64,000 nucleotides of DNA from a phage. The position numbers and the translations under genes are program-made. Shown one piece after another: positions 2,377 to 20,478 of this stretch. Under the pieces are notes generated by a model, which was given only the letters and a program-made list of their open reading frames with translations, was not told where the DNA came from and did no database searches. The stretch lies in NCBI GenBank assembly GCA_025829515.1, contig GCA_025829515.1_4865.1; one strand, written 5' to 3'. Position 1 is the first letter of the stretch. Every line of letters begins with the position of its first letter.

Positions 2377-2400
2377 TTTCAGATATATATTACCTAGGTG
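2377..2400 (+). promoter_or_regulatory. conserved promoter-like motif, copy 1 (TTTCAGATATATATTACCTAGGTG)
   Basis: One of three near-identical copies (also 30881, 49652), each after a terminator and before a conserved leader ending in AAGGAG-ATG; contains TATATTAC. Confidence 0.55.
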
Positions 2401-3444: not shown

Positions 3445-4305
3445 ATGTACAGCATTACTGATTTCATCAAAAGTTCAGATTTCCCCCTACCTCCCGACCA
3501 CGAAGTATTGGCTAGCGATCCGTTAACCGATGCGGCCATTGTCCAGCTGGACCGCGACAAACGTCGTACTTACGTCGTGTTGGTCGAAGGGCAGAGCTAC
3601 GGCCTGTCTTCTTACGACCTGGAGCAGCAGGAGCGTTTCCTCGATGAAAACCGCAAAACGTCAATGTATAGCGCTATCTCGCGTGCGCTGTGCAAGGTAA
3701 TGGCAACCGTTACAGACAGCAAAAAGCGTATCGCTGTGTTACAGGGTATCAATGCACTAACGACCAAAATCCAACAACTTGAAGGTTTCCATTGCCCGCG
3801 ATTGGAAGCCGCACAGAAGGATGCTAAGGGCGATGAGGCCATGGCACTGTTTGAAGGCAATACTGTCTTTGCAACAGCTGAAGCTTGTTATCTCACCTAT
3901 CCAACTTTTAACTATACGCCAATCAGCGACACCGTAGACGGGATTAAAGTAGAGAACGTCGTGCAATGGGGTCGTGCAAATCTCAAGTTTGTGATGTCCC
4001 ATGAAGAAGAAAATCAAGATGGCCTTGGGCAGAAGATTCAACGTTGGTTCACGGCGCGTTTGGACGCCGACTGGGAAGCGCATGTTAACGCAGAGCTTCG
4101 TAAATTTCACGCGGTAGTCGCATTGTTAAAAGAAGACGCTCCCGCCCCGAAACAATCGAAGGCACCAGTGGTTGGCTGGACGTGTTCCGGCTGTAACCGC
4201 AACCATGTCGCTACAGTACCGAGAACTCATCGCTACACTTCGCAGACGATGAACATTGCTTGCCCGGCTTGCGGTAAGATCAACGAAGTTGATTATAAAC
4301 CGTAG
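3445..4305 (+). CDS. hypothetical protein with C-terminal zinc-ribbon-like CxxC...CxxC (286 aa)
   Basis: C-terminus CSGCNRNH...CPACGKINEV; coupled to upstream gene. Confidence 0.7.
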   Translation: MYSITDFIKSSDFPLPPDHEVLASDPLTDAAIVQLDRDKRRTYVVLVEGQSYGLSSYDLEQQERFLDENRKTSMYSAISRALCKVMATVTDSKKRIAVLQGINALTTKIQQLEGFHCPRLEAAQKDAKGDEAMALFEGNTVFATAEACYLTYPTFNYTPISDTVDGIKVENVVQWGRANLKFVMSHEEENQDGLGQKIQRWFTARLDADWEAHVNAELRKFHAVVALLKEDAPAPKQSKAPVVGWTCSGCNRNHVATVPRTHRYTSQTMNIACPACGKINEVDYKP

Positions 4306-4312
4306 TAGTACC

Positions 4313-4351
4313 CCCTCTTACCTTCGGGTAAGAGGGTTTTATATTTATTTT
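4313..4351 (+). terminator. rho-independent terminator (UUCG tetraloop)
   Basis: ccctcttacc-ttcg-ggtaagaggg plus ttttatatttatttt; hairpin identical to the one at 30800-30823. A second hairpin gctctctcc-cgaa-ggagagagc follows at 4372-4393. Confidence 0.8.
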
Positions 4352-4419
4352 CCGAAAAGAAAATAAAAGGCGCTCTCTCCCGAAGGAGAGAGCTTATTCA
4401 CATCCACTTAGAGGTTAAC

Positions 4420-4566
4420 ATGAATACCTTTATACAACAACTGCGTCAGCAACAGCTGAAACAAGTCGCTTTTCAACAACGTCTGCAAGAGGTTAGCCGC
4501 CAACCGCAGACTTCCACCCGTACCATTAAAGGACTAGGAGGTGACATCATCTTCAATAAGAAGTAA
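4420..4566 (+). CDS. small Gln-rich protein, paralog 1 (48 aa)
   Basis: Not in track (<60 aa). GAGG 5 nt before ATG; same length and about 40% identity to 4679-4825 with shared C-terminal IKGLGG(D/E)I motif; own terminator. Confidence 0.55.
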   Translation: MNTFIQQLRQQQLKQVAFQQRLQEVSRQPQTSTRTIKGLGGDIIFNKK

Positions 4567-4575
4567 CACTAACCA

Positions 4576-4597
4576 GGGGTGCTCGAACACCCCTTTT
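4576..4597 (+). terminator. terminator hairpin
   Basis: ggggtg-ctcgaa-cacccc followed by tttt. Confidence 0.6.
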
Positions 4598-4678
4598 AAC
4601 TCCCGTGACAGTATATCAGTGCATTGTGTACCACCACAGCGCAGCGATATATTAACAACCTGCCTAAGGAGGCACTAC

Positions 4679-4825
4679 ATGGAACAACTACGTTCGCAAA
4701 TACTTAACCATTACGTTAAGCAAACCCAATTCAACCAACGTGTACAACAGTTGACTGCGCCCAAGCAGAACACTGTTCGTCGTATCAAGGGTTTAGGAGG
4801 TGAAATACTACTAAACAAAAGTTAA
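4679..4825 (+). CDS. small Gln-rich protein, paralog 2 (48 aa)
   Basis: AAGGAGG 6 nt before ATG; the track ORF 4541-4825 is a read-through extension across the terminator. Synonymous third-position differences relative to paralog 1 (att/atc, aaa/aag, gga/ggt). Confidence 0.6.
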   Translation: MEQLRSQILNHYVKQTQFNQRVQQLTAPKQNTVRRIKGLGGEILLNKS

Positions 4826-4838
4826 CATGAAATAACTC

Positions 4839-4866
4839 TTACCCGAGTGTTCCAGCACTCGGGTAA
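4839..4866 (+). terminator. hairpin, probable terminator
   Basis: 11 bp stem ttacccgagtg/cactcgggtaa; T-run lies about 27 nt downstream (4894-4901), so efficiency is uncertain. Confidence 0.45.
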
Positions 4867-4957
4867 TTCCATGCATATAAATAGTTCGTCGTATTTTTTT
4901 TGATCTTGGCAGGACGCATAAACTGCCCGTAGGGGAGCCTAAGCTCCCCAGTGTTCG

Positions 4958-6520
4958 TTAGAACAAATCATCACCCATTCCACCGGTGAAGAAGTTGATA
5001 GACGACGCTGTTACGGTTTCTTCTTTATCACAATCCCAAGGCAGGATGCCAACATCCTGGAAAGGTATCACTGTGTAGTGATAAGATTCTTTAGTATCGA
5101 TAATGGTGCGGTGCTTACCGCGTTGAACTTCTAAGAAGCTATGGCCGTTGACCACACGCTTGTTAAAATACATTTCACCATCGGCCTCGTTATCAAGGCT
5201 CGAACAACTATCGTAAAGACCACGACCAGGTAAGTTCTTACAGAAACCTACCGGGTCTAACGCTTTTAAGCGCTTACCTTCTGGGGAAATCTGGTGTGGG
5301 GCAATTAAGAACCCACGGTTGCGTACCACTTGAATGTTACGAGCAATACGATAAATTTCTTTGATATCACTCCCGGCAATGCCGTTGCCGTGTCCTGCTT
5401 TGCTGATTGTGCCTAAGTAGTCTGCGCGAATGCCAACAACATGATAACCGCGACGACGTAAGTCGAGAATAAGGTCGTTGATGTAGTGCACTTTAAAATC
5501 GGAGTTGGTGTGCTTTTGGAAAACGTAGTCCCAACCGTTTGCGCGAATCTTACCACAGAGGTAATCAGACATTGCTGTTGTGTGTGCTAACTTCTCTTCA
5601 GCGGTCGCATCTTGGGCAATGGTCATCTGTGGAACTTGTCCTTCAAAATGACCGTACAGTGCTTGATAGCCGTAAGCTAAGTTAACGTCGAGTTCGTTTT
5701 CTAAACTCAAGTCAAGAATAATTGGTTGCAGTGTGCCCTTCACATCCGCCATTACTTTCTCAGGCGTGTTGAAGATAGGAATCGACAAGCTCAGTAAGAG
5801 ACTGAACAAAGACTTACAGTTAAAAGGTAACGCCGGCATTAGCCACAGTTCTTCGGTAATCCCTTTGTTACAACCGAGCATTTGGTTAATGGCTTTCCAG
5901 CCCGTCTGCAAACCATTACCTGCTGCTTTCTTGTTAATCGAGTCGAACACTTTAACAAACGGAGCACGATTATCCGTAACCAGCTCACCAACCAGTGATG
6001 GAATCTTATTATGAGAGCGTTCACCGAACGTAGATAGCGCCTCTTTGAGTTCGAGCACTGCGGTGTTCAGATCAACACGTGTCTCAGTTCCATTCAATGC
6101 TCCGAACGCGCGACCCATTTTTGTTTTGAGTTCGACGCTCTGTAAACATTGACGTAATTGGAAATAATATTGAGACAGTTGTCGATTAAGATGCTCGGTA
6201 CGTTTGTCTTCTTCCTCGGGCAAATCGTCTTCGAGGAATTTGGTAATCGTATCGTATAGAGGACGTACTTGAGTGGTGGCCAGCTTCAAGCGCTTCATAA
6301 CGCTCGCGTGGTCGTATTCCATGCCGCCGTCTATGATAGATGTGATAATGTCCTTGATCTCGATGAGTGCAAAGCGCTCTTCGCCATCTTCCGCATATTC
6401 CGGAAGCTTGATCTGCATCAGAACTTTTCTTATGACATCATGATCCTTGCTAGGGTCCGTCAGCATAGATTCTGTATACAGTGCGGCTAAGGCGGTTATC
6501 AACATCATTTTACTATTCAT
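4958..6520 (-). CDS. hypothetical protein (520 aa), hydrophobic N-terminus
   Basis: Long - strand ORF; AAGGA 6 nt before ATG on - strand; N-terminus MNSKMMLITALAALYTESMLT is signal-peptide-like; hairpin 4932-4949 at 3' end. Confidence 0.75.
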   Translation of the reverse strand: MNSKMMLITALAALYTESMLTDPSKDHDVIRKVLMQIKLPEYAEDGEERFALIEIKDIITSIIDGGMEYDHASVMKRLKLATTQVRPLYDTITKFLEDDLPEEEDKRTEHLNRQLSQYYFQLRQCLQSVELKTKMGRAFGALNGTETRVDLNTAVLELKEALSTFGERSHNKIPSLVGELVTDNRAPFVKVFDSINKKAAGNGLQTGWKAINQMLGCNKGITEELWLMPALPFNCKSLFSLLLSLSIPIFNTPEKVMADVKGTLQPIILDLSLENELDVNLAYGYQALYGHFEGQVPQMTIAQDATAEEKLAHTTAMSDYLCGKIRANGWDYVFQKHTNSDFKVHYINDLILDLRRRGYHVVGIRADYLGTISKAGHGNGIAGSDIKEIYRIARNIQVVRNRGFLIAPHQISPEGKRLKALDPVGFCKNLPGRGLYDSCSSLDNEADGEMYFNKRVVNGHSFLEVQRGKHRTIIDTKESYHYTVIPFQDVGILPWDCDKEETVTASSINFFTGGMGDDLF

Positions 6521-6534
6521 GGAGCATCCTTAAA

Positions 6535-7059
6535 ATGCAAATTCGTTTTAGTCCACCGTGGGAAGTTCAATCTAACATAGATAAAGGGGCTGGCGTTAAA
6601 AAGTTGGAGGAACTCCAAGCAAGCTTCTTTAACTGGTTATATGACTGCTCGTCGGGCTTTAGTTCCATCATACTGCCAGTGAGTGACCCTATTTCGATTT
6701 ATAAATCGATTATGGCACCACCTGCACTTCCGACTCTTTATTATGACCAGGTCTTAAACCTGGTTGAGAAAGGTACGAATGAAACCCTTGCTGATTTATA
6801 TGGGGAATCATTCGACGGTCGTTTACGTTGGGTGTTCTCACAACGTGGCGATGTTGTTGTGGCGTCTTTTGCAGAAGCTAAATCCGGACCGGGTTTTTCT
6901 TTAAGTGAAGACCACGCTGCGAAAAAGATGTTCTGCGCAGAACTTTTTAAATATATGCGTCCCAAGACTCGTGTCGTGGATGATACGTTCAGTACGTCGA
7001 CGCAGTTTGCTGCGCACGAAGTGCTGACGCAGTTGTACGCATGTCATTTATCTAAATAA
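6535..7059 (+). CDS. hypothetical protein (174 aa)
   Basis: ATG at 6535 preferred over track start 6481, which would overlap the divergent - strand gene; GGAG at 6521-6524. Confidence 0.6.
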   Translation: MQIRFSPPWEVQSNIDKGAGVKKLEELQASFFNWLYDCSSGFSSIILPVSDPISIYKSIMAPPALPTLYYDQVLNLVEKGTNETLADLYGESFDGRLRWVFSQRGDVVVASFAEAKSGPGFSLSEDHAAKKMFCAELFKYMRPKTRVVDDTFSTSTQFAAHEVLTQLYACHLSK

Positions 7060-7071
7060 GGTAAACTTGAA

Positions 7072-9369
7072 ATGAAAGATACCCGTATCGCTAGTCTGGA
7101 CCAGCTGGTTCAGCAGGGCAATGCTCTGGTCGCTGCTGCCAAGGCAGGCTCTTCCGCTAATGACGTATGGCAAACCGTAGCCGTTGGCGAATCTGTACGT
7201 AAAAATGCTGCCGGCTTCACCAACCTGCGTGACACTGCTCAGCAGCACTACGAAGCTGTAAACCCTGGCAAAACCATGAGCCACGCTGCTCAGGTTGCTT
7301 CTGCGATGATTCTGGCTGCTGCCGGTCACGAAGATGACTTCATGACCCGTGTTGCTGCTGAGAGCGCGAAGCCGGAATATGCCAGCTACATGCCGATCGC
7401 TATTTCTGGTGCAGCATCTCTGGCTGCTGACTACGGTAAAACTCCGCTGGTCGCAACCGAATACTACACCAACAAAGACCTGGACAAAAACCTGGGTCTG
7501 ACCTGGACGCTGAACGTGCGTGCTCTGGAAACTCAATCCAAGTTTGCAGAAACCCTGTTCCCGACCATCACTGTGGACACCAACGACGTCGGCATCACCG
7601 TTCGTACCAAAGTTACTACTGTAACTCGCGGTATCCTGAACGCCCTGCTGACCAAAGACGTGGTTGAAGACAACCGTCAGCCGCTGCATAACGCGCTGTC
7701 TAACCACAAAGTCCTGCAGGACGATGCTATCCGTATCGTACCTTACGTGATGGAAACCGGTGAGAACGCGAAGTTCTTCGTATCCGAAGACATCATCGAA
7801 AACGAAAACGTTCAGCTGGGTCGTGTGCCGGCGTATCCGACCAACTACCTGAGCTTCTCTGAACGTCGTCTGAACCTGTTCCAGCTGTCTGCCCATCCGG
7901 GTATCGTGCAGGAAGGTTACGATGAAACCGACGAAATCGCACCGGGTGCGGCGCTGGGTAGCCTGCTGCTGTCTGTGCGTAAGCCGACTGAAGAAGCGAA
8001 AGATGGCGCGCTGATCAAACTGAACGTACGCGACATGCAGTTCGCTACCTTCCAGCGTCCTCCTGAAGGTGATGGCCGTGAGCTGGTCCTGCAGTTCCGT
8101 CGCACTGTGTTCTCCCTGAACGCCAAGTCTCTGGACTGGAAAGGTGCTGAAATCCCGGCACTGGCCGCTCTGGCACAGAACGATTACACCATTCGTTATT
8201 CCATGAACATCAGCATGTCTCTGTTCACCAACGGTCAGTTCTCTGGTCGTGTTGACGTGACTGCACCGTCTCTGGAAATCGAAGGTCTGTACGACGCAAC
8301 TGGTACTGCTGTTGATATCGAAAGCGGCACCGGCAAAGTCATCATCGACAACCTGAAACTGGAGCTGCTGGGCTGGCGCTTCGACGGTACTCGTACCAAC
8401 GAGAACCGGAGAACCCAGGGCCTTCTGCTCGACCCGATTTGGGAACAAGAGAACTACAAACTGCAGTACGGTTCTCCGATCATGACCAAATCTCCGGTTG
8501 GCGTTGAATACGACGACACCGAACGTCTGGACGACCTCGTTTCTGCGGTTAACATCCGTAACGAAATGCTGGCTATCACTCAGACTCTGTCTTACACCGA
8601 AGCGGTTAAGAACGCAGCTGCGTCCATGATCACTCCGTGGGACAAACCTGCTATCCGCGGCCTGGGCCGTCACTGGGTTGCTCCGTGGTACAGCGAAAGC
8701 GACTACGAAGTGGACAAAGTGATCCAGTCTCTGGATACCAAAGATGCGCTCATCAACGCCCGTCAGGGTCTGGTACAGCGTATCGGCGACCAGGTAACTC
8801 GTGCTATCCAGGATTCTCGTTTCATGCCGGCTCTGCGCCTGCTGACTGCGGACCCGAACGCACTGCCGAAAGTTGTTATCGCAACTGACGAACCGACTGC
8901 TGCAATGCTGCTGCTGGTTCAGGGTGACCAGCGTCTGCTGGGCGATCGCTACGAGTACGAAGTTATCACCACCAACGATGACCGCTGGCGTGTGAAGAAC
9001 GAAGCTGACGGCAGCTGGACTCGCCGCCTGCAGTGGGTTCTGAAAGTTCCAACCGCTGATGATGGTTCTTACTGTGTTCTGAACTGGGGTAACCACTTCT
9101 GGTCTCCGATCATGGTAACCAACATCAACATCCAGCGTAACGGCGCTACCAGCAAAGAGCTGGCAGTACAGCCTCGTAACGCGCACATCTGCCACTGCCC
9201 GATCACTGGTCTGATCTGGATTAAAGGTATCACCAAGTTCGTGGAAGAGAAACTGGCGTTCAACGTCACTACTACTTCCAACGGTACCGGCGGTACTGAC
9301 GGTGGTAATGCTGGTGATGTTGGCGGCGGTACCCAGCCAGGTACTGGCGGTGAAGGCGCTGGCGGCTAA
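7072..9369 (+). CDS. major structural protein, candidate major capsid protein (765 aa)
   Basis: Strongest high-expression codon bias in the window (CTG, CGT, GGT, ACC; antisense frame stop-free); size fits large-phage capsid/sheath proteins; Gly-rich C-terminal tail. Capsid vs sheath vs other abundant protein is not resolved. Confidence 0.45.
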   Translation: MKDTRIASLDQLVQQGNALVAAAKAGSSANDVWQTVAVGESVRKNAAGFTNLRDTAQQHYEAVNPGKTMSHAAQVASAMILAAAGHEDDFMTRVAAESAKPEYASYMPIAISGAASLAADYGKTPLVATEYYTNKDLDKNLGLTWTLNVRALETQSKFAETLFPTITVDTNDVGITVRTKVTTVTRGILNALLTKDVVEDNRQPLHNALSNHKVLQDDAIRIVPYVMETGENAKFFVSEDIIENENVQLGRVPAYPTNYLSFSERRLNLFQLSAHPGIVQEGYDETDEIAPGAALGSLLLSVRKPTEEAKDGALIKLNVRDMQFATFQRPPEGDGRELVLQFRRTVFSLNAKSLDWKGAEIPALAALAQNDYTIRYSMNISMSLFTNGQFSGRVDVTAPSLEIEGLYDATGTAVDIESGTGKVIIDNLKLELLGWRFDGTRTNENRRTQGLLLDPIWEQENYKLQYGSPIMTKSPVGVEYDDTERLDDLVSAVNIRNEMLAITQTLSYTEAVKNAAASMITPWDKPAIRGLGRHWVAPWYSESDYEVDKVIQSLDTKDALINARQGLVQRIGDQVTRAIQDSRFMPALRLLTADPNALPKVVIATDEPTAAMLLLVQGDQRLLGDRYEYEVITTNDDRWRVKNEADGSWTRRLQWVLKVPTADDGSYCVLNWGNHFWSPIMVTNINIQRNGATSKELAVQPRNAHICHCPITGLIWIKGITKFVEEKLAFNVTTTSNGTGGTDGGNAGDVGGGTQPGTGGEGAGG

Positions 9370-9400
9370 TAATCCGTAAGGATTACGTTGCCTAAGATTA

Positions 9401-9438
9401 GCTTACTCCCTTCGGGGAGTAAGCTTTTTCTTTTTTTC
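9401..9438 (+). terminator. rho-independent terminator (UUCG tetraloop)
   Basis: gcttactccc-ttcg-gggagtaagc plus tttttctttttttc. Confidence 0.85.
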
Positions 9439-9444
9439 TAAAAA

Positions 9445-9469
9445 TTTATAGATAGATATTATCTTAGGG
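9445..9469 (+). promoter_or_regulatory. promoter-like motif variant (TTTATAGATAGATATTATCTTAGGG)
   Basis: Shares the AGATA-N-ATATTA core with the three-copy motif; sits between terminator and AAGGAG-ATG of the next gene. Confidence 0.4.
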
Positions 9470-9504
9470 AGAGAGTCGTTCGGTTTTAACTTAAGGAGAC
9501 AGTA

Positions 9505-10203
9505 ATGGTAATCAATTTAGAAAAATCAAGATTAGTTGCGCCTATGTTCGACGGCAGAGGATTTATGGCAGCCGGCTTTTTTGCATCGGAATGCTCTGTT
9601 CCCTTCCGTGAAAATTCTGAAGAACCTACTAATTTTTATCTCAGTCACGATGCGGTAAGTGCGATATTGCAGTGGGTGAGGATGTGGGAACTTCATTTAC
9701 AAGGTGATGATAGTCTGCGGATGGATTATCCGCAGTTAAATATAAACGGTGTTGTGTTCACTCTATATTCCATCGCCGACTACGACTACAATGAGCTGAA
9801 AAATATACACCCTAGCCAGGCAACGCAAATATTCGACACCATACGTCAGAACTTCGCGACTGGGTTTACTGAACGGAAAGATTTGTGGGAAAAAGCCAAT
9901 CACCCATTTGGTAGTTATTCTGCGGAGTCGTTTAACGTTCTCGGCAGAAGGATGGAGTTTGACTACGATAACGCCGCAGTGCGTTATAATTACCAAATCG
10001 TGAATCAGCCGATCCCCGCCCCGTATGCGTCTCTCGAGTTAACGATGGTAAAGATAGCCGATGCACTCCTCTCAGTAGCAAACACGAACACGTATCCGCA
10101 AGCTGGATACGAGCTGGGTCTGAAGTTGGGCTTCGGCGACCAGAAGTTGGCCGATTTAACCCGCGACCAACTCCGCGAAATAGCCCAACGCCTAATACCC
10201 TAA
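9505..10203 (+). CDS. hypothetical protein (232 aa)
   Basis: ORF with AAGGAG 6 nt before ATG. Confidence 0.75.
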   Translation: MVINLEKSRLVAPMFDGRGFMAAGFFASECSVPFRENSEEPTNFYLSHDAVSAILQWVRMWELHLQGDDSLRMDYPQLNINGVVFTLYSIADYDYNELKNIHPSQATQIFDTIRQNFATGFTERKDLWEKANHPFGSYSAESFNVLGRRMEFDYDNAAVRYNYQIVNQPIPAPYASLELTMVKIADALLSVANTNTYPQAGYELGLKLGFGDQKLADLTRDQLREIAQRLIP

Positions 10204-10250
10204 AGTTTTTTACGTTACGGGCACTGGGTATGAACCCGTGCCCAAAGTAA

Positions 10251-10276
10251 TCTGAGATAGATATTATCTACGTGAA
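10251..10276 (+). promoter_or_regulatory. promoter-like motif variant (TCTGAGATAGATATTATCTACGTG)
   Basis: Same AGATAGATATTATCT core as 9451; preceded by hairpin 10219-10243. Confidence 0.4.
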
Positions 10277-10308
10277 TAATTCTTTTGGTATTATTACTGG
10301 GATGCTCA

Positions 10309-11313: not shown

Positions 11314-11324
11314 GGGAGGCCGGT

Positions 11325-13103
11325 GTGTTTAAAGATGCGATTAGGAAGATTAAAGAGGCAGGCGAAATAGTGCCTTTTAATCGTGCAATTGCAGAAGGAG
11401 TTGGGTACACACAAGCTAAAGATGGGATACATGATCGTGTGGCAACCATTCTACGTCGTGAGTTGACGTATGATGAAATCGATAACCCGAAATTACCAGA
11501 AGGGTTAACGGTGTTAGGCTGCCGTCAGATGTCCCCGTTTGAAGCTTTTATCTTTAAGTTATCGAAGTCGGATAACAATTCACGAAACAATCGTGGCCGG
11601 TCAATTATTAACATCTCATCCACTGACACGTATATGGTAATGGCCTCGTTCCGAGTTCCAGGCGATCCTCGCCCGGTGCAACGACCAATGAGCCTGCCGT
11701 TTATTCGTCGTGGCGGCTTAATGAACTACTACGGTACAACGTACCACGTAGCACCTGTAATCCACCAACCTGGTATTTGTCGTGAGCACGGTGGTATCTT
11801 TATTAACTTTGACTTCACACGCAAGGTGTCTATCAAGTTCTGTAAGAAACCAACGAAGATTCTGGTGAATGGTCGCCCTGAGCAGCTGTTCTTGCCAGGT
11901 ACATCGAATCTGTTTGTCTCAACTGGACAGATTGGACACGACACCGATGAGAAGCCACTGATGTATTGGCTCTTTGGGCGTTATGGCTTTAAACAAGCCG
12001 TGAAGCGTTATGCGGGCGTTGATGTGACGATTTGGCCAGCGATTAAAGTACGTGATGTGGACTTAACGAAGTATGTGGTGATTCAATCTGGTGAGCCACA
12101 ACTCGCGAAGACCATCCAGTACGTACTGTTGGTTAAACGTGAAGATATGCCTAACACCGATGCAGGGCGTTGGGATCAAAACGAACATCTGTTGCTGGTA
12201 GCGACTGCCGCATTCTTCAAAGCGGCGCACTATTACGCAGGTAAACAGAACAGTAAGAACGGTCGTGCACCAACACTGCCGGGGCTGTTTACACAGATTA
12301 ACGAAATGGCAATGGACGAAGATATTGCGAACCTCAATTCTGCAGCCTCCTGGCGCGAAGTGTTGGGTCGTAGTATTCGCGGACTGAAGCCTTCGGATAT
12401 CGAACTGAGTCGCAGTATGGACAGCCACTTCCAGGAATGTGAACGCTATGTCAACAGCACCTTCCGTGGTGAGCTGATGGCAAACGATCCGTCCATCCCT
12501 GATGATTTGGATATGTTTGATTTCCTCTGGTACACCACGCAGCTGATGGTGCGTACTCGTCTTACCAAACAAGATGATATTCCGTCTATGTACGGAAAAC
12601 GTCTCACGGTAACCGATTACTTACTGTTGGGCCAACGTGGCTTTACCACAACGATCTCGAAAATACGTTGGAAGCTGGGGCAGTTGGAACATCGGACTCC
12701 AGAGACAGCGGCGAAGTCTATTCGAGACGCACTGAACAAACAGATCGTGCTCAATCTGGTGATGCGCACCATTACGAGCAACGGCGGTATCAGTTTCTTC
12801 AATGCCTCTACAGAATCAATGGTATTGGCAGTGTCTACGCACGCCATCGGTCAAACCGAAACCGATGCTAAGCGTTCGAAGAAAGGAGGCAAGACCGTTA
12901 ACTTGAACGACCGTACTAAGCACGCATCTGCGTCGCATCTGGAATGTGGTAACGTCTACTATATTCCTAAGTCGGCACCGTTTAAGGCGAACATCCTCAA
13001 CCCGTACATGAAGACCAACCCAAGTTTGGTAATGATGCGGAATCCTAAACTGGACCCGTACATCAGACCGACCGAAGAAGACATTGCTAAAATCGGCCGC
13101 TAA
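11325..13103 (+). CDS. hypothetical protein (592 aa)
   Basis: GTG start with GGGAGG 5 nt upstream, immediately after upstream stop. Confidence 0.75.
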   Translation: MFKDAIRKIKEAGEIVPFNRAIAEGVGYTQAKDGIHDRVATILRRELTYDEIDNPKLPEGLTVLGCRQMSPFEAFIFKLSKSDNNSRNNRGRSIINISSTDTYMVMASFRVPGDPRPVQRPMSLPFIRRGGLMNYYGTTYHVAPVIHQPGICREHGGIFINFDFTRKVSIKFCKKPTKILVNGRPEQLFLPGTSNLFVSTGQIGHDTDEKPLMYWLFGRYGFKQAVKRYAGVDVTIWPAIKVRDVDLTKYVVIQSGEPQLAKTIQYVLLVKREDMPNTDAGRWDQNEHLLLVATAAFFKAAHYYAGKQNSKNGRAPTLPGLFTQINEMAMDEDIANLNSAASWREVLGRSIRGLKPSDIELSRSMDSHFQECERYVNSTFRGELMANDPSIPDDLDMFDFLWYTTQLMVRTRLTKQDDIPSMYGKRLTVTDYLLLGQRGFTTTISKIRWKLGQLEHRTPETAAKSIRDALNKQIVLNLVMRTITSNGGISFFNASTESMVLAVSTHAIGQTETDAKRSKKGGKTVNLNDRTKHASASHLECGNVYYIPKSAPFKANILNPYMKTNPSLVMMRNPKLDPYIRPTEEDIAKIGR

Positions 13104-13134
13104 TTATTACATCTCTTAAGGAGTATTATTTACA

Positions 13135-14805: not shown

Positions 14806-14812
14806 GTAATAC

Positions 14813-14848
14813 GGAGACCTTCGGGTCTCCTATTATTATTTTTTATTC
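14813..14848 (+). terminator. rho-independent terminator (UUCG tetraloop)
   Basis: ggagacc-ttcg-ggtctcc followed by T-rich run. Confidence 0.8.
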
Positions 14849-14870
14849 TATCGTGAAAAGGAGTATTAAA

Positions 14871-15137: not shown

Positions 15138-15139
15138 TT

Positions 15140-15474: not shown

Positions 15475-15539
15475 AAAAAAAGAAAAGGTACCTCTCCCCG
15501 AAGGGAGAGGTAAACCTTATTTCTTTTTCTTTTTTTGTT
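15474..15539. terminator. bidirectional terminator between convergent genes
   Basis: Hairpin cctctccc-cgaa-gggagagg (15491-15510) flanked by an A-run upstream and a T-run downstream. Confidence 0.75.
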
Positions 15540-18283
15540 TAGAGGACGTTGTCTGGGTTGTCGTCGGTAGTTCCTTCACCGCCTTCTGTGCCTTCCGTTC
15601 CCTCGGTAGTTGTTTCCGTGGTTTCGGTCGACTCAGTAGTTTCCTCTGTACTATCGCCACCGGTGCCGTTATCCGTATCGAGATCGAGGTCTAAATCATC
15701 GTCACCCCCACCGCCGAGATCCCCATCATCACCACCAGTGTCACCGCCCGCATCAAAACCACCACCGAATCCGCCGGAAGCATCATTAGGATCAAGGTCG
15801 GCATTCTTCGCTAACGTTTCCAGTCGTCCGGTGAAACGTTTCGCCAATTGAATCAGCGTTTTCGAAGCAGCCATCGCTTCATCAGTCATCATGGTGATGT
15901 TGTCCTGACGAGAATCATCGTCGTAAACCAGATCGAAGAAGTCGGTTTCAATACCTTGTTTACGCAGCCAGTTGCGCGTATAGAAGGACTTGATCATCGT
16001 CTTCAGATCGTTCGGGTCCATCGAGATGCCTTCTTGCTGGAGTTGCGCAGCAATGTCATCCGTTACAACCAGATCAGCCAGCTTCTCAAAGAACTCCGTA
16101 CGTTTATCGAACAGCTCCATCTGCGAAGCTGCTGCCGATGTGTCGGGTGGTGGTAAGGTTACTTTCATACCGTTGATAAACGCAGCCAGATACTCAGAGA
16201 CCTTTTTCGTAATCTGGTCAGTAGTCATCCCATTGCCGTTAGCATTGATGTACTCTGCAATGATTTTAATCATCGCTGATTGCAACGACGGAGAGGCCAA
16301 CATCCCATTAACTACGTAACGTGTCAGTGGCTTAGAGAGAATCTCTTGCTTCTTAACAACCTGCTGGGTGACCAGTAACGATTTAGAGAAGATCTGTGAA
16401 GCAAACTCGATGTTCTCGGGGGTCATTACCAGGTCAGGGTCAACACCTGCGATGTGACAAGTGCGACGTAACAGACCTTCGTCGAAATCCTTATCCGGGT
16501 ATTTATAATCCGGCGTAGTGTCCGACACAGACACTTTGGTACTACCGTAGTAGTCGTTACCAATAACGTTAAACGCAATACCTGCGTTTGTCGTCATTGC
16601 CCAGGTGTCGTTCATGTCCCCCCACATCGGTTGACGACGGTTATAGGAGTTCATGATGTCTGTTTTCAGCTGGTCAATTGTTTTCTGACCGTTCATGTCG
16701 TCTGGTGCCAACTCAATGTCGTACTGCATGTGACGTGCAGAGTTCAGCACCGCAGAGTTCATGGTAGCGAACAACAGCGCCATACGGACAGTAGAGATAA
16801 CGAACGAGCGTTCGGTAATAGATACACCGATACCATCTTCATCAAAGTCCGTGGCAAAATAGCAAAGGTTTTCCGCAGGAATATAAATAACCTGCGTATG
16901 ACGTTTTGCCAGATGGCGCGCCAGCATGATACGGCTGAACGTTTCGGTTACTGTCATGCTAATCTCAGCACCACCCAACGCCTCACCCAACGCTTTTGTC
17001 AGCTGGTCTTCAGCAATCTCACCATAACGCGCTGTTAAGCGGTTAGCAATGTCTGGTGTGATTCGGGTTGTGTTGCCCATCCCCAGATTCGCGCGGTTGA
17101 TTGTCGAATCTACCATACCGTCGTTGTTCAGGTAGTTCATGAAGTTCGCATCCCCGTAAAGTGTGGAACGCGAGTTAATGAAGTTACCCATTTCGTCAAC
17201 GATGGCCAGATAACCTATGGGGTTACGAACATCGTCTCCGATAACGAGTGGGAGTGTGGACTCTGCTGGCAGTAATCGTTCCGTGTATTCGATTTTGTTG
17301 GCATCGGAGAAACTCATCTTCGGTACTTCGCCGTAAAGCTTTTGCTCAGGCGTTTTCTGGTACGCTTCGTTGAGGTCGCCGATGTTGATTAAACCGAGTT
17401 TTGCCTTCTCTTGTTCGCTGTCTGTGAACTGGTCAGCGTTATACTCTGACGCACCTGTCGGCGTAGAAGGTTGTTCATATGCGTACTGCTCTAACTGACC
17501 GAACAGGCCGGTGCGAGCATTCTCCTGTGCCACACGGCGATAAGCCTCTGGTAGCAGGGTAATACGCGGGTTGTCGGTGATAACGATATCCAGGGAAGCT
17601 AACATACCGTCTGCTTTAAACGGACTGTTAGGGGCTGCTGCAAAGTTAAGTTTAATGGTTTGTGGCTTGGTGGGCTTGTCAGCGCCACGTGCACGACCCA
17701 GAATACTTTCTACGCCAACCTTCGGTTTGTTTTCACCGCCAATCTTGCCCAGGATACCCAACTGACGTTCAAAGAAGTCAGATTGGCTACGGCGCAACGA
17801 TTCGGTTGCAACAGACGGCTTTAAGCCGAAGAGTTCATCGAATCCGGTATCTGAAATCAGCAACACCGGGCTCGCGCCTTTGGATTTCAGTGCATCGTAA
17901 ATCCACTGATACAGTTTGTTGGGTAACTGGCGCGTGTGGTCATGGAATTCACGCACAGGTTCCAATAACTGCTGACGCAGGTCGATCGGGATATCAGCCA
18001 CGTTGTCGTAAATCAGCGTGGTGTTAATCAAATCTTTTGTGGACAGGAGCGAGGAGGTCGCGATGGTAACAATGACCTCTAACTCAGGGAGCGCATCAAA
18101 GATACGTTCGGCATTTTTAACGGTGCGAATGCGGCTACTCGCAATGCCCGTGAGTTCTGTACGGGTTGGTGTAACGCCGCCATCTTCACGCTTACCGCGT
18201 TGCTGCTGAGCCGACGGGCTCGTGGACTTACGCAGTATGGCAGCTACCGCGGGGTCGCCCGTTAATTTACTAATATCTTCCAT
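15539..18283 (-). CDS. large virion-type protein with acidic disordered C-terminal tail, candidate portal (914 aa)
   Basis: Long - strand ORF; GGAGA 6 nt before ATG; C-terminal about 80 aa low-complexity acidic (DLDLDLD, TEETTESTETTETTTEGTEG). Portal assignment is inference from size and composition only. Confidence 0.3.
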   Translation of the reverse strand: MEDISKLTGDPAVAAILRKSTSPSAQQQRGKREDGGVTPTRTELTGIASSRIRTVKNAERIFDALPELEVIVTIATSSLLSTKDLINTTLIYDNVADIPIDLRQQLLEPVREFHDHTRQLPNKLYQWIYDALKSKGASPVLLISDTGFDELFGLKPSVATESLRRSQSDFFERQLGILGKIGGENKPKVGVESILGRARGADKPTKPQTIKLNFAAAPNSPFKADGMLASLDIVITDNPRITLLPEAYRRVAQENARTGLFGQLEQYAYEQPSTPTGASEYNADQFTDSEQEKAKLGLINIGDLNEAYQKTPEQKLYGEVPKMSFSDANKIEYTERLLPAESTLPLVIGDDVRNPIGYLAIVDEMGNFINSRSTLYGDANFMNYLNNDGMVDSTINRANLGMGNTTRITPDIANRLTARYGEIAEDQLTKALGEALGGAEISMTVTETFSRIMLARHLAKRHTQVIYIPAENLCYFATDFDEDGIGVSITERSFVISTVRMALLFATMNSAVLNSARHMQYDIELAPDDMNGQKTIDQLKTDIMNSYNRRQPMWGDMNDTWAMTTNAGIAFNVIGNDYYGSTKVSVSDTTPDYKYPDKDFDEGLLRRTCHIAGVDPDLVMTPENIEFASQIFSKSLLVTQQVVKKQEILSKPLTRYVVNGMLASPSLQSAMIKIIAEYINANGNGMTTDQITKKVSEYLAAFINGMKVTLPPPDTSAAASQMELFDKRTEFFEKLADLVVTDDIAAQLQQEGISMDPNDLKTMIKSFYTRNWLRKQGIETDFFDLVYDDDSRQDNITMMTDEAMAASKTLIQLAKRFTGRLETLAKNADLDPNDASGGFGGGFDAGGDTGGDDGDLGGGGDDDLDLDLDTDNGTGGDSTEETTESTETTETTTEGTEGTEGGEGTTDDNPDNVL

Positions 18284-18294
18284 TGGGGTCTCCG

Positions 18295-20478
18295 ATGCAG
18301 AGATTTAACATTTTTCGTGACCAGGCTATCCAGTTAGCGAAATCCCTGATTGTCAAATCAGAGAGCATCGCACAACAGATGAACCTGGCAATAACCAAAA
18401 ACGGCGGTTTCGTTTCCGAGAACCGTGAGACGTGGCGGTATTACCTACACTTAGCAGGTAAACGACATGCAATCGACAAGCCGATATACATTACGTCACT
18501 CGACACGCAAGAGCAGATAGAGTTAACGACGCAGAACCTCTCCCGTCATAAAAAGACCTCAAACGTATATCGTTCTAACCCGGAGTATATCGACGACTTA
18601 ATCGCCGAGTATCCGGACTACGCAGTATACATTCGCGGTACTTTCAATCCGATTGATATTGCATACGCGATACGTGTCGATGACTGCTCAATTTTGTATT
18701 ACGATCCTGCTTTAGTTGAACCGCAGGAGACGTCGTTAATTACACATATTGAGAACTTTATTCGTGCAGCACATGTGCGTTTCATGGCTGATGGCTGGAA
18801 AGTTCACAACGACTGTTTCGTACTGGCCTTTTACATGCAGCAGTACCCGGTGTGGCCGGGGCTTATCATGTACATCCGCAAACGGTTACAGTTTACGACC
18901 GAAACGCACTCCTACTACGTGACCGAGTTCTTGGCTTCGCACCAAGAACTGCACGAGTTCATGCCGTACCTGACCCTCAAGCAGAAATTCACACTGTATC
19001 GCAATATCCGTTACTGGGAACGTAACTCTGGTAAGGAAGAAATCTTTACCTGGATGATTGACACCCTGCTGACGGGTTGGGGTATGCCTGCTGTTGGATA
19101 TAAGGTCGCCCAGCAGATTCACGACCCGACGACGGGCAGTGACGATGACCTGACACCACTCCCGATCGGCTACCAGTCATCGCTTAACTATACTGAACGT
19201 GACTCGGGCCGTGACCTGGACATTGTTAGCACAACTGACATCATCCAGAAAGAAATCAATCTGGCGTACAATAACCCAGTGCACGAACCTGACTATCAGG
19301 AAGACCTCGATCGGCGTTTGAGCTTGACGCAGTATCCGAACCTGCCAACGAAGTTAGTTGAGGTAACGGCGATTGACCCAGAGGCCATCGAACGTTGGGA
19401 ATTTATGCATGGCTTGTTCAACGAGTGGATGCATATCGTGGCACGTGGACAGTACAACATTTACCACGAAATTCTTAACCCAACGAACGGGGATACGCTA
19501 AAGCTCACTTCAAAAGAGCTGCTGGCACTGTTCTTGTATGCGAGCTTCAAAGGTTATTCTGGCGTAGCACTGGATAAAATCCCGGTGTGGAATGTGTTTG
19601 GTGTGTTAATCAAACGCTGGGTTGGTTTTGATGAGATGGTGCAGCATCTGCCAAGCTCATGGCCCGGCCGTTTTAATGCGCTGATTAACTATTACACGGA
19701 CACGCATCATGAAGTTATCGGTAATTTGATGTCTGCAGATGAGTTGTACGATGAAATCAGCGAAATCATGGTGCAGAAGCGTCGTCGTTACCGTTACTCG
19801 TATAATCGACACAAGCTAGCCGACCGTGCTGCCGGCACAATGCTGTTTACCTACCATTACCGTGACTATAAGTGCGATCTTGACCTACCTTACCGCGATT
19901 ACGACGAGTTCTTCAAAACGTTTGGTTTTGATTACGAGTTAGTCTCCGCGGAAACCTGGCAGGACATCGCCACCGACGCTTTAAACGTGGCCACTAATCT
20001 GGAAACACGTGCGTCTGTCTCACAAGCTGAAATACAACGCGCGATGGTGCGGTTAATGACGAAACTCTCGTCGTATACTGTCCATTTTGCCGCACGTATG
20101 GGTTCTGACACCTACGATGTCACCGACCCAGTCATCCCGATTCTGGATGATATTCTCGCAGAGGCTGCCGATACAACAAATATCATTTACCCTCTGACAG
20201 ACGTGCAGCGCGTGAGCCGTAGTTCATTCATGACGACGGATAAACCCATCCCTGTCGCTCCCGTGATAAAGGAAATGGCAATCCCGCAACGTATTAAGTT
20301 GCGGATGAATGTCTACCCTGGTATCCGTGTGAAGGTCGAGCAGGATGTTGTGGTCGATACGGTACAACCGCCTATCGACGTTGTCCGTGTGCGGACGTCA
20401 TTTGAGGAGTGGACGCTTGCCGAGCGCGTGGCCGACCGTGACATGGATGGCTTCCGGCTAGACCAATTACCAAAGTGA
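18295..20478 (+). CDS. hypothetical protein (727 aa)
   Basis: ATG at 18295 (track start 18283 is TTG coinciding with the divergent gene start); no Walker A, so not a terminase large subunit. Confidence 0.7.
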   Translation: MQRFNIFRDQAIQLAKSLIVKSESIAQQMNLAITKNGGFVSENRETWRYYLHLAGKRHAIDKPIYITSLDTQEQIELTTQNLSRHKKTSNVYRSNPEYIDDLIAEYPDYAVYIRGTFNPIDIAYAIRVDDCSILYYDPALVEPQETSLITHIENFIRAAHVRFMADGWKVHNDCFVLAFYMQQYPVWPGLIMYIRKRLQFTTETHSYYVTEFLASHQELHEFMPYLTLKQKFTLYRNIRYWERNSGKEEIFTWMIDTLLTGWGMPAVGYKVAQQIHDPTTGSDDDLTPLPIGYQSSLNYTERDSGRDLDIVSTTDIIQKEINLAYNNPVHEPDYQEDLDRRLSLTQYPNLPTKLVEVTAIDPEAIERWEFMHGLFNEWMHIVARGQYNIYHEILNPTNGDTLKLTSKELLALFLYASFKGYSGVALDKIPVWNVFGVLIKRWVGFDEMVQHLPSSWPGRFNALINYYTDTHHEVIGNLMSADELYDEISEIMVQKRRRYRYSYNRHKLADRAAGTMLFTYHYRDYKCDLDLPYRDYDEFFKTFGFDYELVSAETWQDIATDALNVATNLETRASVSQAEIQRAMVRLMTKLSSYTVHFAARMGSDTYDVTDPVIPILDDILAEAADTTNIIYPLTDVQRVSRSSFMTTDKPIPVAPVIKEMAIPQRIKLRMNVYPGIRVKVEQDVVVDTVQPPIDVVRVRTSFEEWTLAERVADRDMDGFRLDQLPK

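What the first reader, a model, noticed from the sequence alone, without database searches (positions are those of the whole stretch)
6481..6560. Back-to-back divergent start codons (6520/6535 and 18283/18295): isolated - strand genes embedded in a + strand genome
The only two - strand genes (520 aa and 914 aa) each begin 11-14 bp from the start of a divergent + strand gene, with the two SD sequences on opposite strands of the same short spacer. There is no room for intergenic promoters, so transcription must initiate inside the neighbouring coding sequences. Both - strand genes end at hairpins facing the convergent + strand genes.
Basis: seen in the sequence. Interest (0 to 1): 0.45.

Follow-up and report, generated by a model that had tools for sequence, protein, structure and literature searches.

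The report
Head-to-head jumbo-phage genes, promoters inside neighbours
In this SPN3US-like jumbo phage, two ancient gene pairs start back to back only 11-14 bases apart, and conserved four-base TATG motifs suggest each gene is transcribed from a small phage-polymerase promoter hidden inside its neighbour's coding sequence, a layout already documented experimentally for the portal gene of the related phage phiKZ.

Summary
The window is a Seoulvirus, an SPN3US-like jumbo phage related to phiKZ. Its only two minus-strand genes are a DnaB-like helicase (4958-6520) and the portal (15539-18283). Each starts 14 or 11 bp from a divergent plus-strand gene, and the spacer holds little more than two opposed Shine-Dalgarno sequences.

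The geometry (spacers of 11-15 bp), the spacer sequences and the protein N-termini are conserved in nine genomes from five genera. Both pairs also exist in phiKZ (gp118/gp119 and gp128/gp129), so they are ancestral units, not recent single-gene inversions.

Antisense TATG, the core of the phiKZ late promoter, is invariant at five sites in the four junction genes: plus-strand starts at 6434, 6013 and 17481, minus-strand starts at 6576 and 18547. Five of 14 such motifs are invariant, against 3% of all 4-mers and 0 of 17 in 27 control genes. Rare codons are fixed at these sites. In phiKZ, a published start site (P070) lies 71 nt inside gp128 and drives a portal-only mRNA.

No start site has been mapped in this clade. 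The J1 sites are convincing; the J2 sites imply long leaders and are less certain. Overall this is a new instance of a known arrangement, of modest interest.

The parts
4958..6520 (-). DnaB-like replicative helicase gene (520 aa), homologous to phiKZ gp118
   Evidence: Pfam PF20307 divDNAB scores 1e-124 and PHROG 3213 aligns to residues 1-520. It is 27% identical to phiKZ gp118, E = 2e-44.
6521..6534 (.). J1 spacer of 14 bp carrying two opposed Shine-Dalgarno sequences: plus-strand GGAG at 6521-6524, and minus-strand AAGGA as the complement of 6527-6531
   Evidence: Read directly from the sequence. The core GGAGCA(T/A)CCTT is conserved in nine genomes, with spacers of 11-14 bp.
6535..7059 (+). 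174-aa gene of unknown function (PHROG 8266) that immediately precedes the major capsid gene (7072-9369). It is the positional counterpart of phiKZ gp119.
   Evidence: Sequence homology to gp119 was not detected (hhalign probability 0.15).
6431..6434 (+). Candidate late-type promoter core TATG, with putative start G at 6434. It lies 86 nt inside the helicase CDS and 101 nt upstream of the 6535 ATG.
   Evidence: Invariant in 9 of 9 genomes as TTCTTATGAC. The helicase codons over it, GTC ATA AGA, are fixed although their usage is only 0.17, 0.11 and 0.045.
6576..6579 (-). Candidate promoter core TATG on the minus strand, with putative start G at 6576. It lies 41 nt inside the 174-aa gene and 56 nt upstream of the helicase ATG.
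   Evidence: Invariant in 9 of 9 genomes, with the rare Ile codon ATA fixed. In six of the nine genomes it is the only antisense TATG in that gene. phiKZ has TATGTTTAG 26 nt upstream of the gp118 start.
6010..6013 (+). Second invariant antisense TATG inside the helicase gene (+507). It could be an upstream promoter or an antisense-RNA promoter.
   Evidence: It sits in the longest invariant run in the helicase alignment, 15 nt, reading GGAATCTTATTATGA on the plus strand.
6742..6802 (+). Two sense-strand TATG motifs (6742-6745 and 6799-6802) inside the 174-aa gene, invariant in nine genomes. They are candidate internal promoters for the capsid gene.
   Evidence: In phiKZ, start sites P064-P068 lie inside gp119.
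15489..15512 (.). Bidirectional intrinsic-terminator hairpin between the convergent gene 15172-15474 (plus strand) and the portal gene (minus strand), flanked by an A-run and a T-run
   Evidence: Folding energy is -28 to -31 kcal/mol, and the same architecture occurs with different sequences in all nine genomes.
4932..4949 (.). GC-rich hairpin immediately after the helicase stop codon
   Evidence: A hairpin is present in all nine genomes, but no T-run follows it on the minus strand.
15539..18283 (-). Portal protein gene (914 aa): SPN3US gp81, homologous to phiKZ gp129
   Evidence: PHROG 3004. tblastn matches phiKZ gp129 at 24% identity, E = 2e-34. Identified as the portal in PMC5105663 and PMC5694885.
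18284..18294 (.). J2 spacer of 11 bp. The quasi-palindrome GGGGTCTCC serves as a Shine-Dalgarno sequence on both strands.
   Evidence: It is conserved, reading GGAGTTGTCTCC in CR5, with spacers of 11-15 bp.
18295..20478 (+). 727-aa protein gene annotated as a virion structural protein, homologous to phiKZ gp128
   Evidence: PHROG 3222. It is 29% identical to gp128, E = 1e-88.
18547..18550 (-). Candidate promoter core TATG on the minus strand (TTTTTATGAC), with putative start G at 18547. It lies 252 nt inside the 727-aa gene and 264 nt upstream of the portal ATG.
   Evidence: Invariant in 9 of 9 genomes. Its CAT is the only invariant His codon among ten invariant His columns. It is the only antisense TATG in the first 1 kb of this gene in Huxley and Kwan.
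17478..17481 (+). Invariant antisense TATG inside the portal gene (+802). It is a candidate distant promoter for the 727-aa gene (814-nt leader) or for an antisense RNA.
   Evidence: Present in 9 of 9 genomes. The base before it is kept even where the amino acid differs (GCA Ala versus TCA Ser). It is the only antisense TATG in the first 1 kb of the portal gene in six of nine genomes.
11325..13103 (+). Context: homologue of phiKZ gp123, the beta-like subunit of the non-virion RNA polymerase
   Evidence: blastp gives 22% identity over 534 aa, E = 2e-20. The role of gp123 is taken from PMC7618050.

Best explanation
These are two ancient divergent gene pairs of a phiKZ-like (SPN3US-type) jumbo phage: helicase against the capsid operon, and portal against a 727-aa virion protein. 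In this lineage the shared intergenic DNA has shrunk to 11-15 bp, enough only for two opposed ribosome-binding sites.

Transcription does not need that space. The phage's own non-virion RNA polymerase starts at minimal promoters whose only sequence signature is TATG at the start site. Here those promoters sit inside the partner gene's coding sequence, on its antisense strand.

**Proposed start sites.**
- G 6434 (plus strand) for the 174-aa gene and capsid operon.
- G 6576 (minus strand) for the helicase.
- G 18547 (minus strand) for the portal.
- G 17481 (plus strand, less certain) for the 727-aa gene.

Each start site lies beyond the partner's start codon. The paired transcription units therefore cross, and their mRNAs carry complementary 5' leaders of about 143 nt at J1 and up to about 1,067 nt at J2. 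The portal mRNA would be monocistronic, running about 3 kb from 18547 to the bidirectional terminator at 15489-15512.

**Shown:** gene identities, geometry, conservation of the spacers and TATG sites, and terminator structure.
**Inferred:** that the TATG sites are used as start sites, and any regulatory consequence of the overlap.
For: **Identity of the phage.**
- The region tested (4900-20500) is 99% identical to Seoulvirus genomes.
- It encodes a homologue of phiKZ nvRNAP subunit gp123.

**The arrangement is old.** It is conserved in nine genomes from five genera. In phiKZ the same pairs are gp118(-)/gp119(+)-gp120, with a 211-bp spacer holding the well-studied late promoter P119L, and gp128(-)/gp129(+), with a 35-bp spacer.

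**What is known about phiKZ late promoters.**
- The consensus is only T(-3)ATG(+1). All four bases are required in vitro (PMC4666361; PMC7598289).
- Published ONT-cappable-seq places late start site P070 at 130258. That is 71 nt inside the gp128 CDS and 107 nt upstream of the portal ATG.
- P070 gives a 2,841-nt portal-only transcript, TU100 (bioRxiv 10.1101/2023.10.13.562163, supplement).

**TATG is conserved in non-coding DNA of this clade.** It is kept upstream of several plus-strand genes across genera while the flanking bases vary.

**Antisense TATG is conserved specifically in the four junction genes.**
- Five of 14 antisense TATG motifs are invariant in nine genomes, against 3.0% of all 4-mers. 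That is the highest rate of any 4-mer.
- In 27 other plus-strand genes compared across five genera, 0 of 17 are invariant (Fisher p = 0.012; binomial p = 3e-4).
- In an initial control of five genes compared across nine genomes, 0 of 4 antisense and 0 of 23 sense TATG motifs were invariant.

**The conservation is at the nucleotide level, not the protein level.**
- Rare codons (ATA 11%, AGA 4.5%, GTC 17%) are fixed at the site.
- Only 8-13% of invariant degenerate amino-acid columns keep the same codon in three of the four genes, and 39% in the 174-aa gene.
- In many genomes the conserved site is the only antisense TATG in the first kilobase.
- Antisense TATG is otherwise depleted in the window: 62 observed against 146 expected.

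**Alternatives near the junctions are absent.**
- The early-type motif CAGATAKATRTTAY gives seven close matches (0-1 mismatch), all plus-strand and intergenic. None of these lies on the transcribing strand upstream of either junction.
- Sigma-70-like sites are fewer than in shuffled sequence.
Against: - No 5'-end mapping exists for any Seoulvirus or related Erwinia or Cronobacter phage in the searchable literature. Every start site here is inferred.
- TATG is necessary but not sufficient in phiKZ, and the additional determinants are unknown.
- The J2 sites imply long leaders of 264 and 814 nt. Leaders from the intergenic TATG sites in this window are typically 24-60 nt.
- The embedded positions are not homologous to phiKZ P070.
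- A helicase would be expected to be an early or middle gene, yet its candidate promoter is of the late type.
- phiKZ ONT-cappable-seq reported no start site for gp118 or gp128.
- The control sample of antisense TATG motifs is small (17), because the motif is depleted.
- TATG is only 1.8-fold enriched 15-65 nt upstream of plus-strand start codons in the window.
Confidence: 0.62

Rival explanations
1. The genes are transcribed from promoters of another, unrecognised class near the junction, such as middle promoters, which have a weak AT-rich motif near -24 in phiKZ. Alternatively they are read from long read-through or antisense transcripts that start far away. In either case the conserved TATG sites have another role, for example as promoters of regulatory antisense RNAs.
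For: - About a fifth of phiKZ start sites (32 of 149) have no recognisable motif.
- phiKZ has an antisense start site, P069, inside the capsid gene. Its reads run toward gp118 and reach 117511.
- The sites at helicase +507 and portal +802 lie too far from any start codon to look like ordinary mRNA promoters.
- A replication helicase would be expected to belong to the middle class.
Against: - The J1 TATG sites lie at ordinary leader distances (56 and 101 nt) and are the most conserved nucleotides in their neighbourhood.
- No other conserved non-coding-like element was found in the first 300 nt on either side. The TTTACT motifs and the TATG at 18236 are not conserved.
- A bidirectional terminator and a plus-strand terminator-like hairpin (4839-4866) stand upstream of the antisense paths.
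Confidence: 0.25
2. Host sigma-70 RNA polymerase transcribes the pairs from overlapping divergent promoters that straddle the start codons, as in compact bacterial divergent operons.
For: A weak sigma-70-like match, TTTACT-16-TAAAAT, lies at 6509-6536.
Against: - That match would start transcription after the ATG.
- Its -35 part is not conserved in CR5, Phobos or EarlPhillipIV.
- Sigma-70-like sites number 12, against 19.7 expected from shuffles.
- phiKZ-type phages develop independently of the host polymerase (PMC7598289, PMC4666361), and the window carries an nvRNAP subunit gene.
Confidence: 0.03
3. The tight spacing is an annotation artefact. The true start codons lie further downstream, which would leave normal intergenic regions.
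For: Phage genome annotations often misplace start codons. SEGD1 annotates the capsid gene and the portal gene differently.
Against: - Amino-acid conservation begins at Met1 in all four genes across nine genomes, while the spacer is conserved as Shine-Dalgarno-like DNA.
- PHROG profiles align from residue 1, or residue 4 for the portal.
- Peptides from the cleaved N-terminal region (propeptide) of the portal were detected by mass spectrometry (PMC5694885).
Confidence: 0.02

Closest known systems
phiKZ late promoter P070 and transcription unit TU100 (portal gp129), mapped by ONT-cappable-seq (Putzeys et al., bioRxiv 10.1101/2023.10.13.562163; Microlife 2024)
   Same: It involves the orthologous gene pair, portal against the gp128 or 727-aa protein, arranged divergently with a tiny spacer. 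A TATG(AC) promoter is embedded in the partner's 5' coding sequence. The portal mRNA is monocistronic and ends at a terminator shared with a convergent gene.
   Different: - The phiKZ spacer is 35 bp, against 11-15 bp here.
- P070 lies 71 nt inside gp128. Here the conserved site lies 252 nt inside the partner, at a non-homologous position.
- The whole pair is inverted relative to the flanking genes.
- The phiKZ site is mapped experimentally; the sites here are only inferred.
phiKZ late promoter P119L (gp119-gp120 capsid operon)
   Same: The synteny is the same: helicase on the minus strand, then a small head-associated gene and the capsid gene on the plus strand. The TATG start-site motif is the same, and the promoter is recognised by the five-subunit non-virion RNA polymerase.
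   Different: In phiKZ, P119L sits in a 211-bp intergenic spacer, 47 nt before the ATG. Here the spacer is 14 bp and the candidate promoter lies inside the helicase ORF, 101 nt before the ATG. Sequence homology between gp119 and the 174-aa protein was not detected.
Crossed or back-to-back late promoter pairs in phiKZ (P043/P044 at 81932+/81969-, P072/P073 at 134420+/134428-)
   Same: These are divergent TATG-type promoters whose start sites overlap, so the two transcripts share complementary 5' ends.
   Different: In phiKZ the overlaps are 9-38 nt. Here they would be about 143 nt and up to about 1 kb, and both promoters would lie inside protein-coding sequence.
Compact divergent operons of bacteria with overlapping sigma-70 promoters
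   Same: Two genes are read outward from a shared control region.
   Different: Those need roughly 50-150 bp or more of intergenic DNA holding -35 and -10 elements for the host polymerase. Here the spacer holds only ribosome-binding sites, and the polymerase is phage-encoded.

Membership tests
phiKZ-type non-virion-RNAP late promoter (T-3 A T G+1) | The phage encodes the phiKZ-like multisubunit non-virion RNA polymerase | tested here: met
   Window gene 11325-13103 is homologous to phiKZ gp123 (E = 2e-20). Only this one subunit lies in the window. The phage is 99% identical to SPN3US-type genomes.
phiKZ-type non-virion-RNAP late promoter (T-3 A T G+1) | A TATG motif on the transcribed strand upstream of the gene, under selection | tested here: met
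   Invariant in 9 of 9 genomes at 6431-6434 (+), 6576-6579 (-), 18547-18550 (-), 17478-17481 (+) and 6010-6013 (+). Conservation is well above background and above controls.
phiKZ-type non-virion-RNAP late promoter (T-3 A T G+1) | Transcription actually starts at the G of TATG and depends on all four bases | not testable with these tools
   This needs 5'-end mapping or in vitro transcription. No such data for this clade were found.
phiKZ-type non-virion-RNAP late promoter (T-3 A T G+1) | The promoter drives late, mostly virion, genes | tested here: inconclusive
   The portal, the 727-aa virion protein and the capsid operon fit. The helicase is a replication gene, and its temporal class is unknown.
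Jumbo-phage virion-RNAP early promoter (AT-rich consensus near -10) | A match to the clade's conserved early motif upstream on the transcribed strand | tested here: not met
   CAGATAKATRTTAY gives seven close matches (0-1 mismatch), all on the plus strand in intergenic DNA. None of these lies upstream of either junction on the transcribing strand. The only match in a junction gene is a two-mismatch plus-strand site at 18481, inside and downstream of the start of the 727-aa gene. That this motif is the early promoter is inferred from its resemblance to phiKZ early promoters.
Sigma-70 divergent promoter region | -35 and -10 hexamers placed so that transcription starts upstream of each Shine-Dalgarno sequence | tested here: not met
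   The 11-14 bp spacers cannot hold them. The only nearby match (6509-6536) would start after the ATG. Sites are fewer than in shuffles.
Conserved phiKZ-like (Chimalliviridae) gene pairs gp118/gp119 and gp128/gp129 | Sequence homology of each member and a divergent orientation | tested here: met
   Helicase matches gp118 at 2e-44, the 727-aa protein matches gp128 at 1e-88, and the portal matches gp129 (blastp E = 2.6e-40; tblastn 2e-34). All are divergent. Exception: the 174-aa protein against gp119 gives hhalign probability 0.15, so that correspondence rests on position and size only.
Bidirectional intrinsic terminator | A GC-rich stem-loop flanked by an A-run upstream and a T-run downstream, between convergent genes | tested here: met
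   Seen at 15489-15512. It is structurally conserved in all nine genomes. The helicase hairpin at 4932-4949 lacks the T-run on the minus strand, so it does not meet this definition.

The most novel reading that the evidence does not exclude
Each promoter lies beyond its partner's start codon, so the paired mRNAs must carry perfectly complementary 5' leaders that include both ribosome-binding sites and both start codons. The overlap is about 143 nt for helicase against capsid operon, and up to about 1 kb for portal against the 727-aa protein. This crossing could be a selected, built-in antisense or transcriptional-interference switch. Such a switch could shut off the helicase as capsid transcription rises, or hold portal output low relative to its partner. 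That function, rather than simple genome compaction, would explain why the layout is frozen across five genera.
Probability: 0.2. Interest if true: 0.55.

Novelty: new member of a known kind. Interest (0 to 1): 0.32.

Why it matters
Promoters of the phiKZ-type non-virion RNA polymerase are poorly defined. The only consensus is four bases, which is necessary but not sufficient. Here, comparative data across five genera single out a handful of TATG sites that are held fixed against synonymous drift inside coding sequences. These sites, with their flanks, are a ready-made natural test set for what else the polymerase recognises.

The result also gives concrete predictions for how SPN3US, a genetic model for jumbo phages, expresses four genes, at least two of which (capsid and portal) are central to virion assembly. 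It shows that the extreme compaction at these junctions is ancestral and conserved.

If the crossed leaders turn out to be regulatory, this would be a simple, conserved antisense circuit in a nucleus-forming phage. Otherwise the finding is an orderly instance of known jumbo-phage transcription biology.

Tried and rejected
- **TATG at 18236-18239**, 56 nt before the 18295 ATG, looked like the obvious promoter. It is present only in the window genome, in 1 of 9.
- **TTTACT motifs** lie 26-29 nt upstream of both plus-strand ATGs and resemble the phiKZ middle-promoter 'ATACT'. They are simply the antisense of Ser-Lys codons and are not conserved in the Kwan or CR5 groups.
- **Sigma-70 scan:** fewer sites than in shuffled sequence.
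- **Early-promoter motif:** none of the seven close matches lies upstream of a junction on the transcribing strand.
- **Synonymous-site profile of the first 130 codons:** raised only in the first 12-24 codons of three genes. That is suggestive, but it is also expected from translation-initiation constraints.
- **TATG enrichment upstream of plus-strand starts:** only 1.8-fold, so not decisive on its own.
- **hhalign of the 174-aa family against phiKZ gp119:** no homology.
- **Xoo-sp14 as an outgroup:** the pair is divergent with a spacer of about 44 bp, but there is no TATG within 1 kb in this 59% GC genome, so it is uninformative.
- **Rfam on 4000-21000:** no hits.
- **Literature:**
  - No transcriptome of SPN3US or its relatives was found.
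  - Ceyssens et al. 2014 is not held in the library.
  - No supplements are held for the published Microlife version of the phiKZ study or for the 201phi2-1 paper.
Full report
**What the window is.** The region tested (4900-20500) is 99% identical to Salmonella, Escherichia and Proteus phages of the genus Seoulvirus, the SPN3US type. These are phiKZ-related jumbo phages. Window gene 11325-13103 is homologous to phiKZ gp123, a beta-like subunit of the non-virion RNA polymerase, or nvRNAP. According to the literature, such phages transcribe independently of the host. An injected virion polymerase reads early genes from a conserved AT-rich promoter. The nvRNAP reads late genes from promoters whose only consensus is T(-3)ATG(+1). 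All four bases are required, but they are not sufficient (PMC7598289; PMC4666361; PMC7618050).

**Checking the observation.**
- The two junctions are as described. At J1 the minus-strand ATG ends at 6520 and the plus-strand ATG is at 6535, a 14-bp spacer. At J2 the corresponding positions are 18283 and 18295, an 11-bp spacer.
- Each spacer is a quasi-palindrome that reads as a Shine-Dalgarno sequence on both strands: GGAGCATCCTT at J1 and GGGGTCTCC at J2.
- The minus-strand genes are a divergent DnaB-like helicase (Pfam PF20307, 1e-124) and the portal protein (SPN3US gp81, a phiKZ gp129 homologue).
- The plus-strand partners are a 174-aa protein of unknown function that precedes the major capsid gene, and a 727-aa protein annotated as a virion structural protein.
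- Annotations of related genomes show no other minus-strand genes in this 64 kb. The remaining long minus-strand ORFs match no PHROG family, while two of the four plus-strand genes they overlap do, and a third is the major capsid gene.
- The portal gene ends at a textbook bidirectional terminator (15489-15512), whose structure is conserved in nine genomes. The helicase gene ends at a conserved hairpin (4932-4949) that lacks a T-run on its own strand.

**Conservation and ancestry.**
- I compared nine genomes from five genera: Seoulvirus, Erskinevirus, Machinavirus, Wellingtonvirus and Derbicusvirus. They are roughly 65-85% identical to the window in DNA.
- In all nine, both pairs are divergent, with spacers of 11-14 bp at J1 and 11-15 bp at J2. 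The spacer cores are conserved, and the proteins are conserved from Met1. The start codons are therefore right and the compaction is selected.
- The same pairs exist in phiKZ. gp118 (helicase homologue, 2e-44) is divergent from gp119-gp120 (capsid) across a 211-bp spacer that holds the classic late promoter P119L. gp128 (homologue of the 727-aa protein, 1e-88) is divergent from the portal gp129 across 35 bp.
- In Xoo-sp14 the portal pair is divergent with a spacer of about 44 bp once the start codon is corrected.
- The minus-strand genes are therefore halves of ancient divergent units, not isolated inversions. Relative to phiKZ, the portal unit is inverted as a block.

**Where transcription could start.**
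- Neither spacer contains TATG.
- The clade's early-type motif, CAGATAKATRTTAY, gives seven close matches (0-1 mismatch). All are on the plus strand in intergenic DNA, and none lies upstream of either junction on the transcribing strand.
- Sigma-70-like sites are fewer than in shuffled sequence.
- TATG does behave as a promoter core in this clade. In non-coding DNA upstream of plus-strand genes 26643, 36284, 36863, 51063, 29463 and 25314 it is conserved across genera while the flanks drift. It often appears as TATGAC(C), 27-33 nt before the ATG.

**The key result.**
- I built codon alignments of the four junction genes from the nine genomes and looked for TATG on the antisense strand, the strand that points toward the partner gene.
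- Five sites are invariant:
  - helicase +86 (window TATG 6431-6434);
  - helicase +507 (6010-6013);
  - 174-aa gene +41 (minus-strand TATG, 6579-6576);
  - portal +802 (17478-17481);
  - 727-aa gene +252 (minus-strand TATG, 18550-18547).
- That is 5 of 14 antisense TATG motifs, against 3.0% of all 4-mer positions. It is the highest invariance of any 4-mer.
- In five neighbouring control genes, 0 of 4 antisense and 0 of 23 sense TATG motifs are invariant.
- In 27 other plus-strand genes compared across five genera, 0 of 17 antisense TATG motifs are invariant (Fisher p = 0.012; binomial p = 3e-4).
- The constraint acts on nucleotides, not amino acids:
  - At helicase codons 29-31, GTC ATA AGA is fixed in all nine genomes, although these codons make up 17%, 11% and 4.5% of their families.
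  - Only 13% of invariant degenerate amino-acid columns in the helicase keep one codon.
  - The Ile at codon 15 of the 174-aa gene is the rare ATA in all nine.
  - At portal +802, the base before TATG is kept even where Ala (GCA) becomes Ser (TCA).
- In many genomes the conserved site is the only antisense TATG in the first kilobase of the gene.
- Antisense TATG is generally depleted in the window, 62 observed against 146 expected. This fits selection against stray antisense promoters.
- All five sites share a T-rich -4 to -8 segment.

**Experimental precedent.**
- The supplement of the phiKZ ONT-cappable-seq study lists late start site P070 at 130258 (...AAATTTTATGA). By my coordinates it lies 71 nt inside the gp128 ORF and 107 nt upstream of the portal ATG.
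- P070 gives TU100, a 2,841-nt portal-only transcript that ends at a terminator.
- The same table shows crossed divergent late promoters: P043/P044 overlap by 38 nt and P072/P073 by 9 nt. It also shows several start sites inside gp119 upstream of the capsid gene. These parallel the two invariant sense TATG motifs at 6742 and 6799 here.
- phiKZ also has an unmapped TATGTTTAG 26 nt upstream of the gp118 start. It resembles the TATGTTAG at 6576.

**Model.** The nvRNAP starts at G 6434 (plus strand, 101-nt leader) for the 174-aa gene and capsid operon, and at G 6576 (minus strand, 56-nt leader) for the helicase. It starts at G 18547 (minus strand, 264-nt leader) for a monocistronic portal mRNA of about 3 kb that ends at 15489-15512. 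Less certainly, it starts at G 17481 (plus strand, 814-nt leader) for the 727-aa gene. Translation uses the opposed Shine-Dalgarno sequences in the spacers. Because each start lies beyond the partner's start codon, the units cross and the leaders are complementary, over 143 nt at J1 and up to about 1,067 nt at J2. Whether this has regulatory use is unknown.

**Caveats.**
- No start site has been mapped in this clade.
- TATG alone does not make a promoter.
- The J2 leaders are long.
- The sites are not positionally homologous to P070.
- A late-type promoter for a helicase is unexpected.
- phiKZ data show no start site for gp118 or gp128.
- The sites at +507 and +802 may drive antisense RNAs rather than mRNAs.

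**Verdict.** This is a new, comparatively well-supported instance of a known jumbo-phage arrangement. It is of modest interest, and somewhat higher if the crossed leaders prove regulatory.

Noticed in passing
window 2380-2393, 9449-9462, 10254-10267, 30884-30897, 37485-37498, 45889-45902, 49656-49669 (all + strand): The motif (T)TTCAGATA(T/G)AT(A/G)TTAY recurs in intergenic DNA, often just after a terminator hairpin. There are 10 matches at two or fewer mismatches, against 2.0 expected. It resembles phiKZ early promoters (...GAGATCTATATTAC) and is probably this clade's virion-polymerase early promoter.
   Followed up: partly
window 6930-6952 (and TATG at 6955-6958): A 23-nt stretch, GTTCTGCGCAGAACTTTTTAAAT, is invariant in all nine genomes. 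It is the longest invariant run in the four junction genes. It contains a perfect 14-bp palindrome followed by a T-run and lies inside the 3' part of the 174-aa gene, about 120-140 nt before the capsid gene start. TATG follows it in six of nine genomes. It may be a regulator-binding site, an attenuator, or part of the main capsid promoter.
   Followed up: partly
window 4917-4920 (- strand), also 4874-4877: In non-coding DNA just downstream of the helicase hairpin, a minus-strand TTTATG(CGTCC) is present in all nine genomes. It points into the antisense of two small plus-strand genes and toward the reverse of the 4839-4866 hairpin. It could be a promoter for a short antisense or non-coding RNA. 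The same TATGCGTCC also occurs on the plus strand at 6955.
   Followed up: partly
window 7048-9195 (- strand ORF, 715 aa) antisense to the capsid gene 7072-9369: The codon-aligned antisense frame of the major capsid gene has no stop codon, or almost none, in eight of nine genomes. This is a by-product of extreme codon bias. In the capsid gene 66 of 70 Leu codons are CTG, and TTA, CTA and TCA are absent (24.6 expected, P = 1e-11). Kwan has stops in this frame, and the ORF matches no protein family.
   Followed up: yes
window 4420-4566 and 4679-4825 (+): These are two tandem paralogous 48-aa genes with a shared C-terminal motif, (T/R)IKGLGG(D/E)I(I/L)(F/L)NK. Each is followed by its own GC-rich hairpin, and they lie just upstream of the convergent helicase gene.
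   Followed up: no
whole window: CATA on the plus strand, which is TATG on the strand antisense to nearly all genes, is strongly depleted: 62 observed against 146 expected from a Markov model. Plus-strand TATG is also depleted (186 against 295). This fits selection against stray promoters for the phage polymerase.
   Followed up: partly
L002 (phage SEGD1) 15648-18388: In the SEGD1 record the portal gene is annotated as two overlapping ORFs (SEGD1_082 and SEGD1_083), and the capsid gene has a later start with a spurious antisense ORF (SEGD1_074). These are probably sequencing or annotation errors, not biology.
   Followed up: no
window 18236-18239 (+): This TATG, 56 nt upstream of the 727-aa gene's ATG, looks like an ideal promoter. 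It is unique to the window lineage (1 of 9 genomes). It could be a lineage-specific extra promoter or a chance occurrence.
   Followed up: yes
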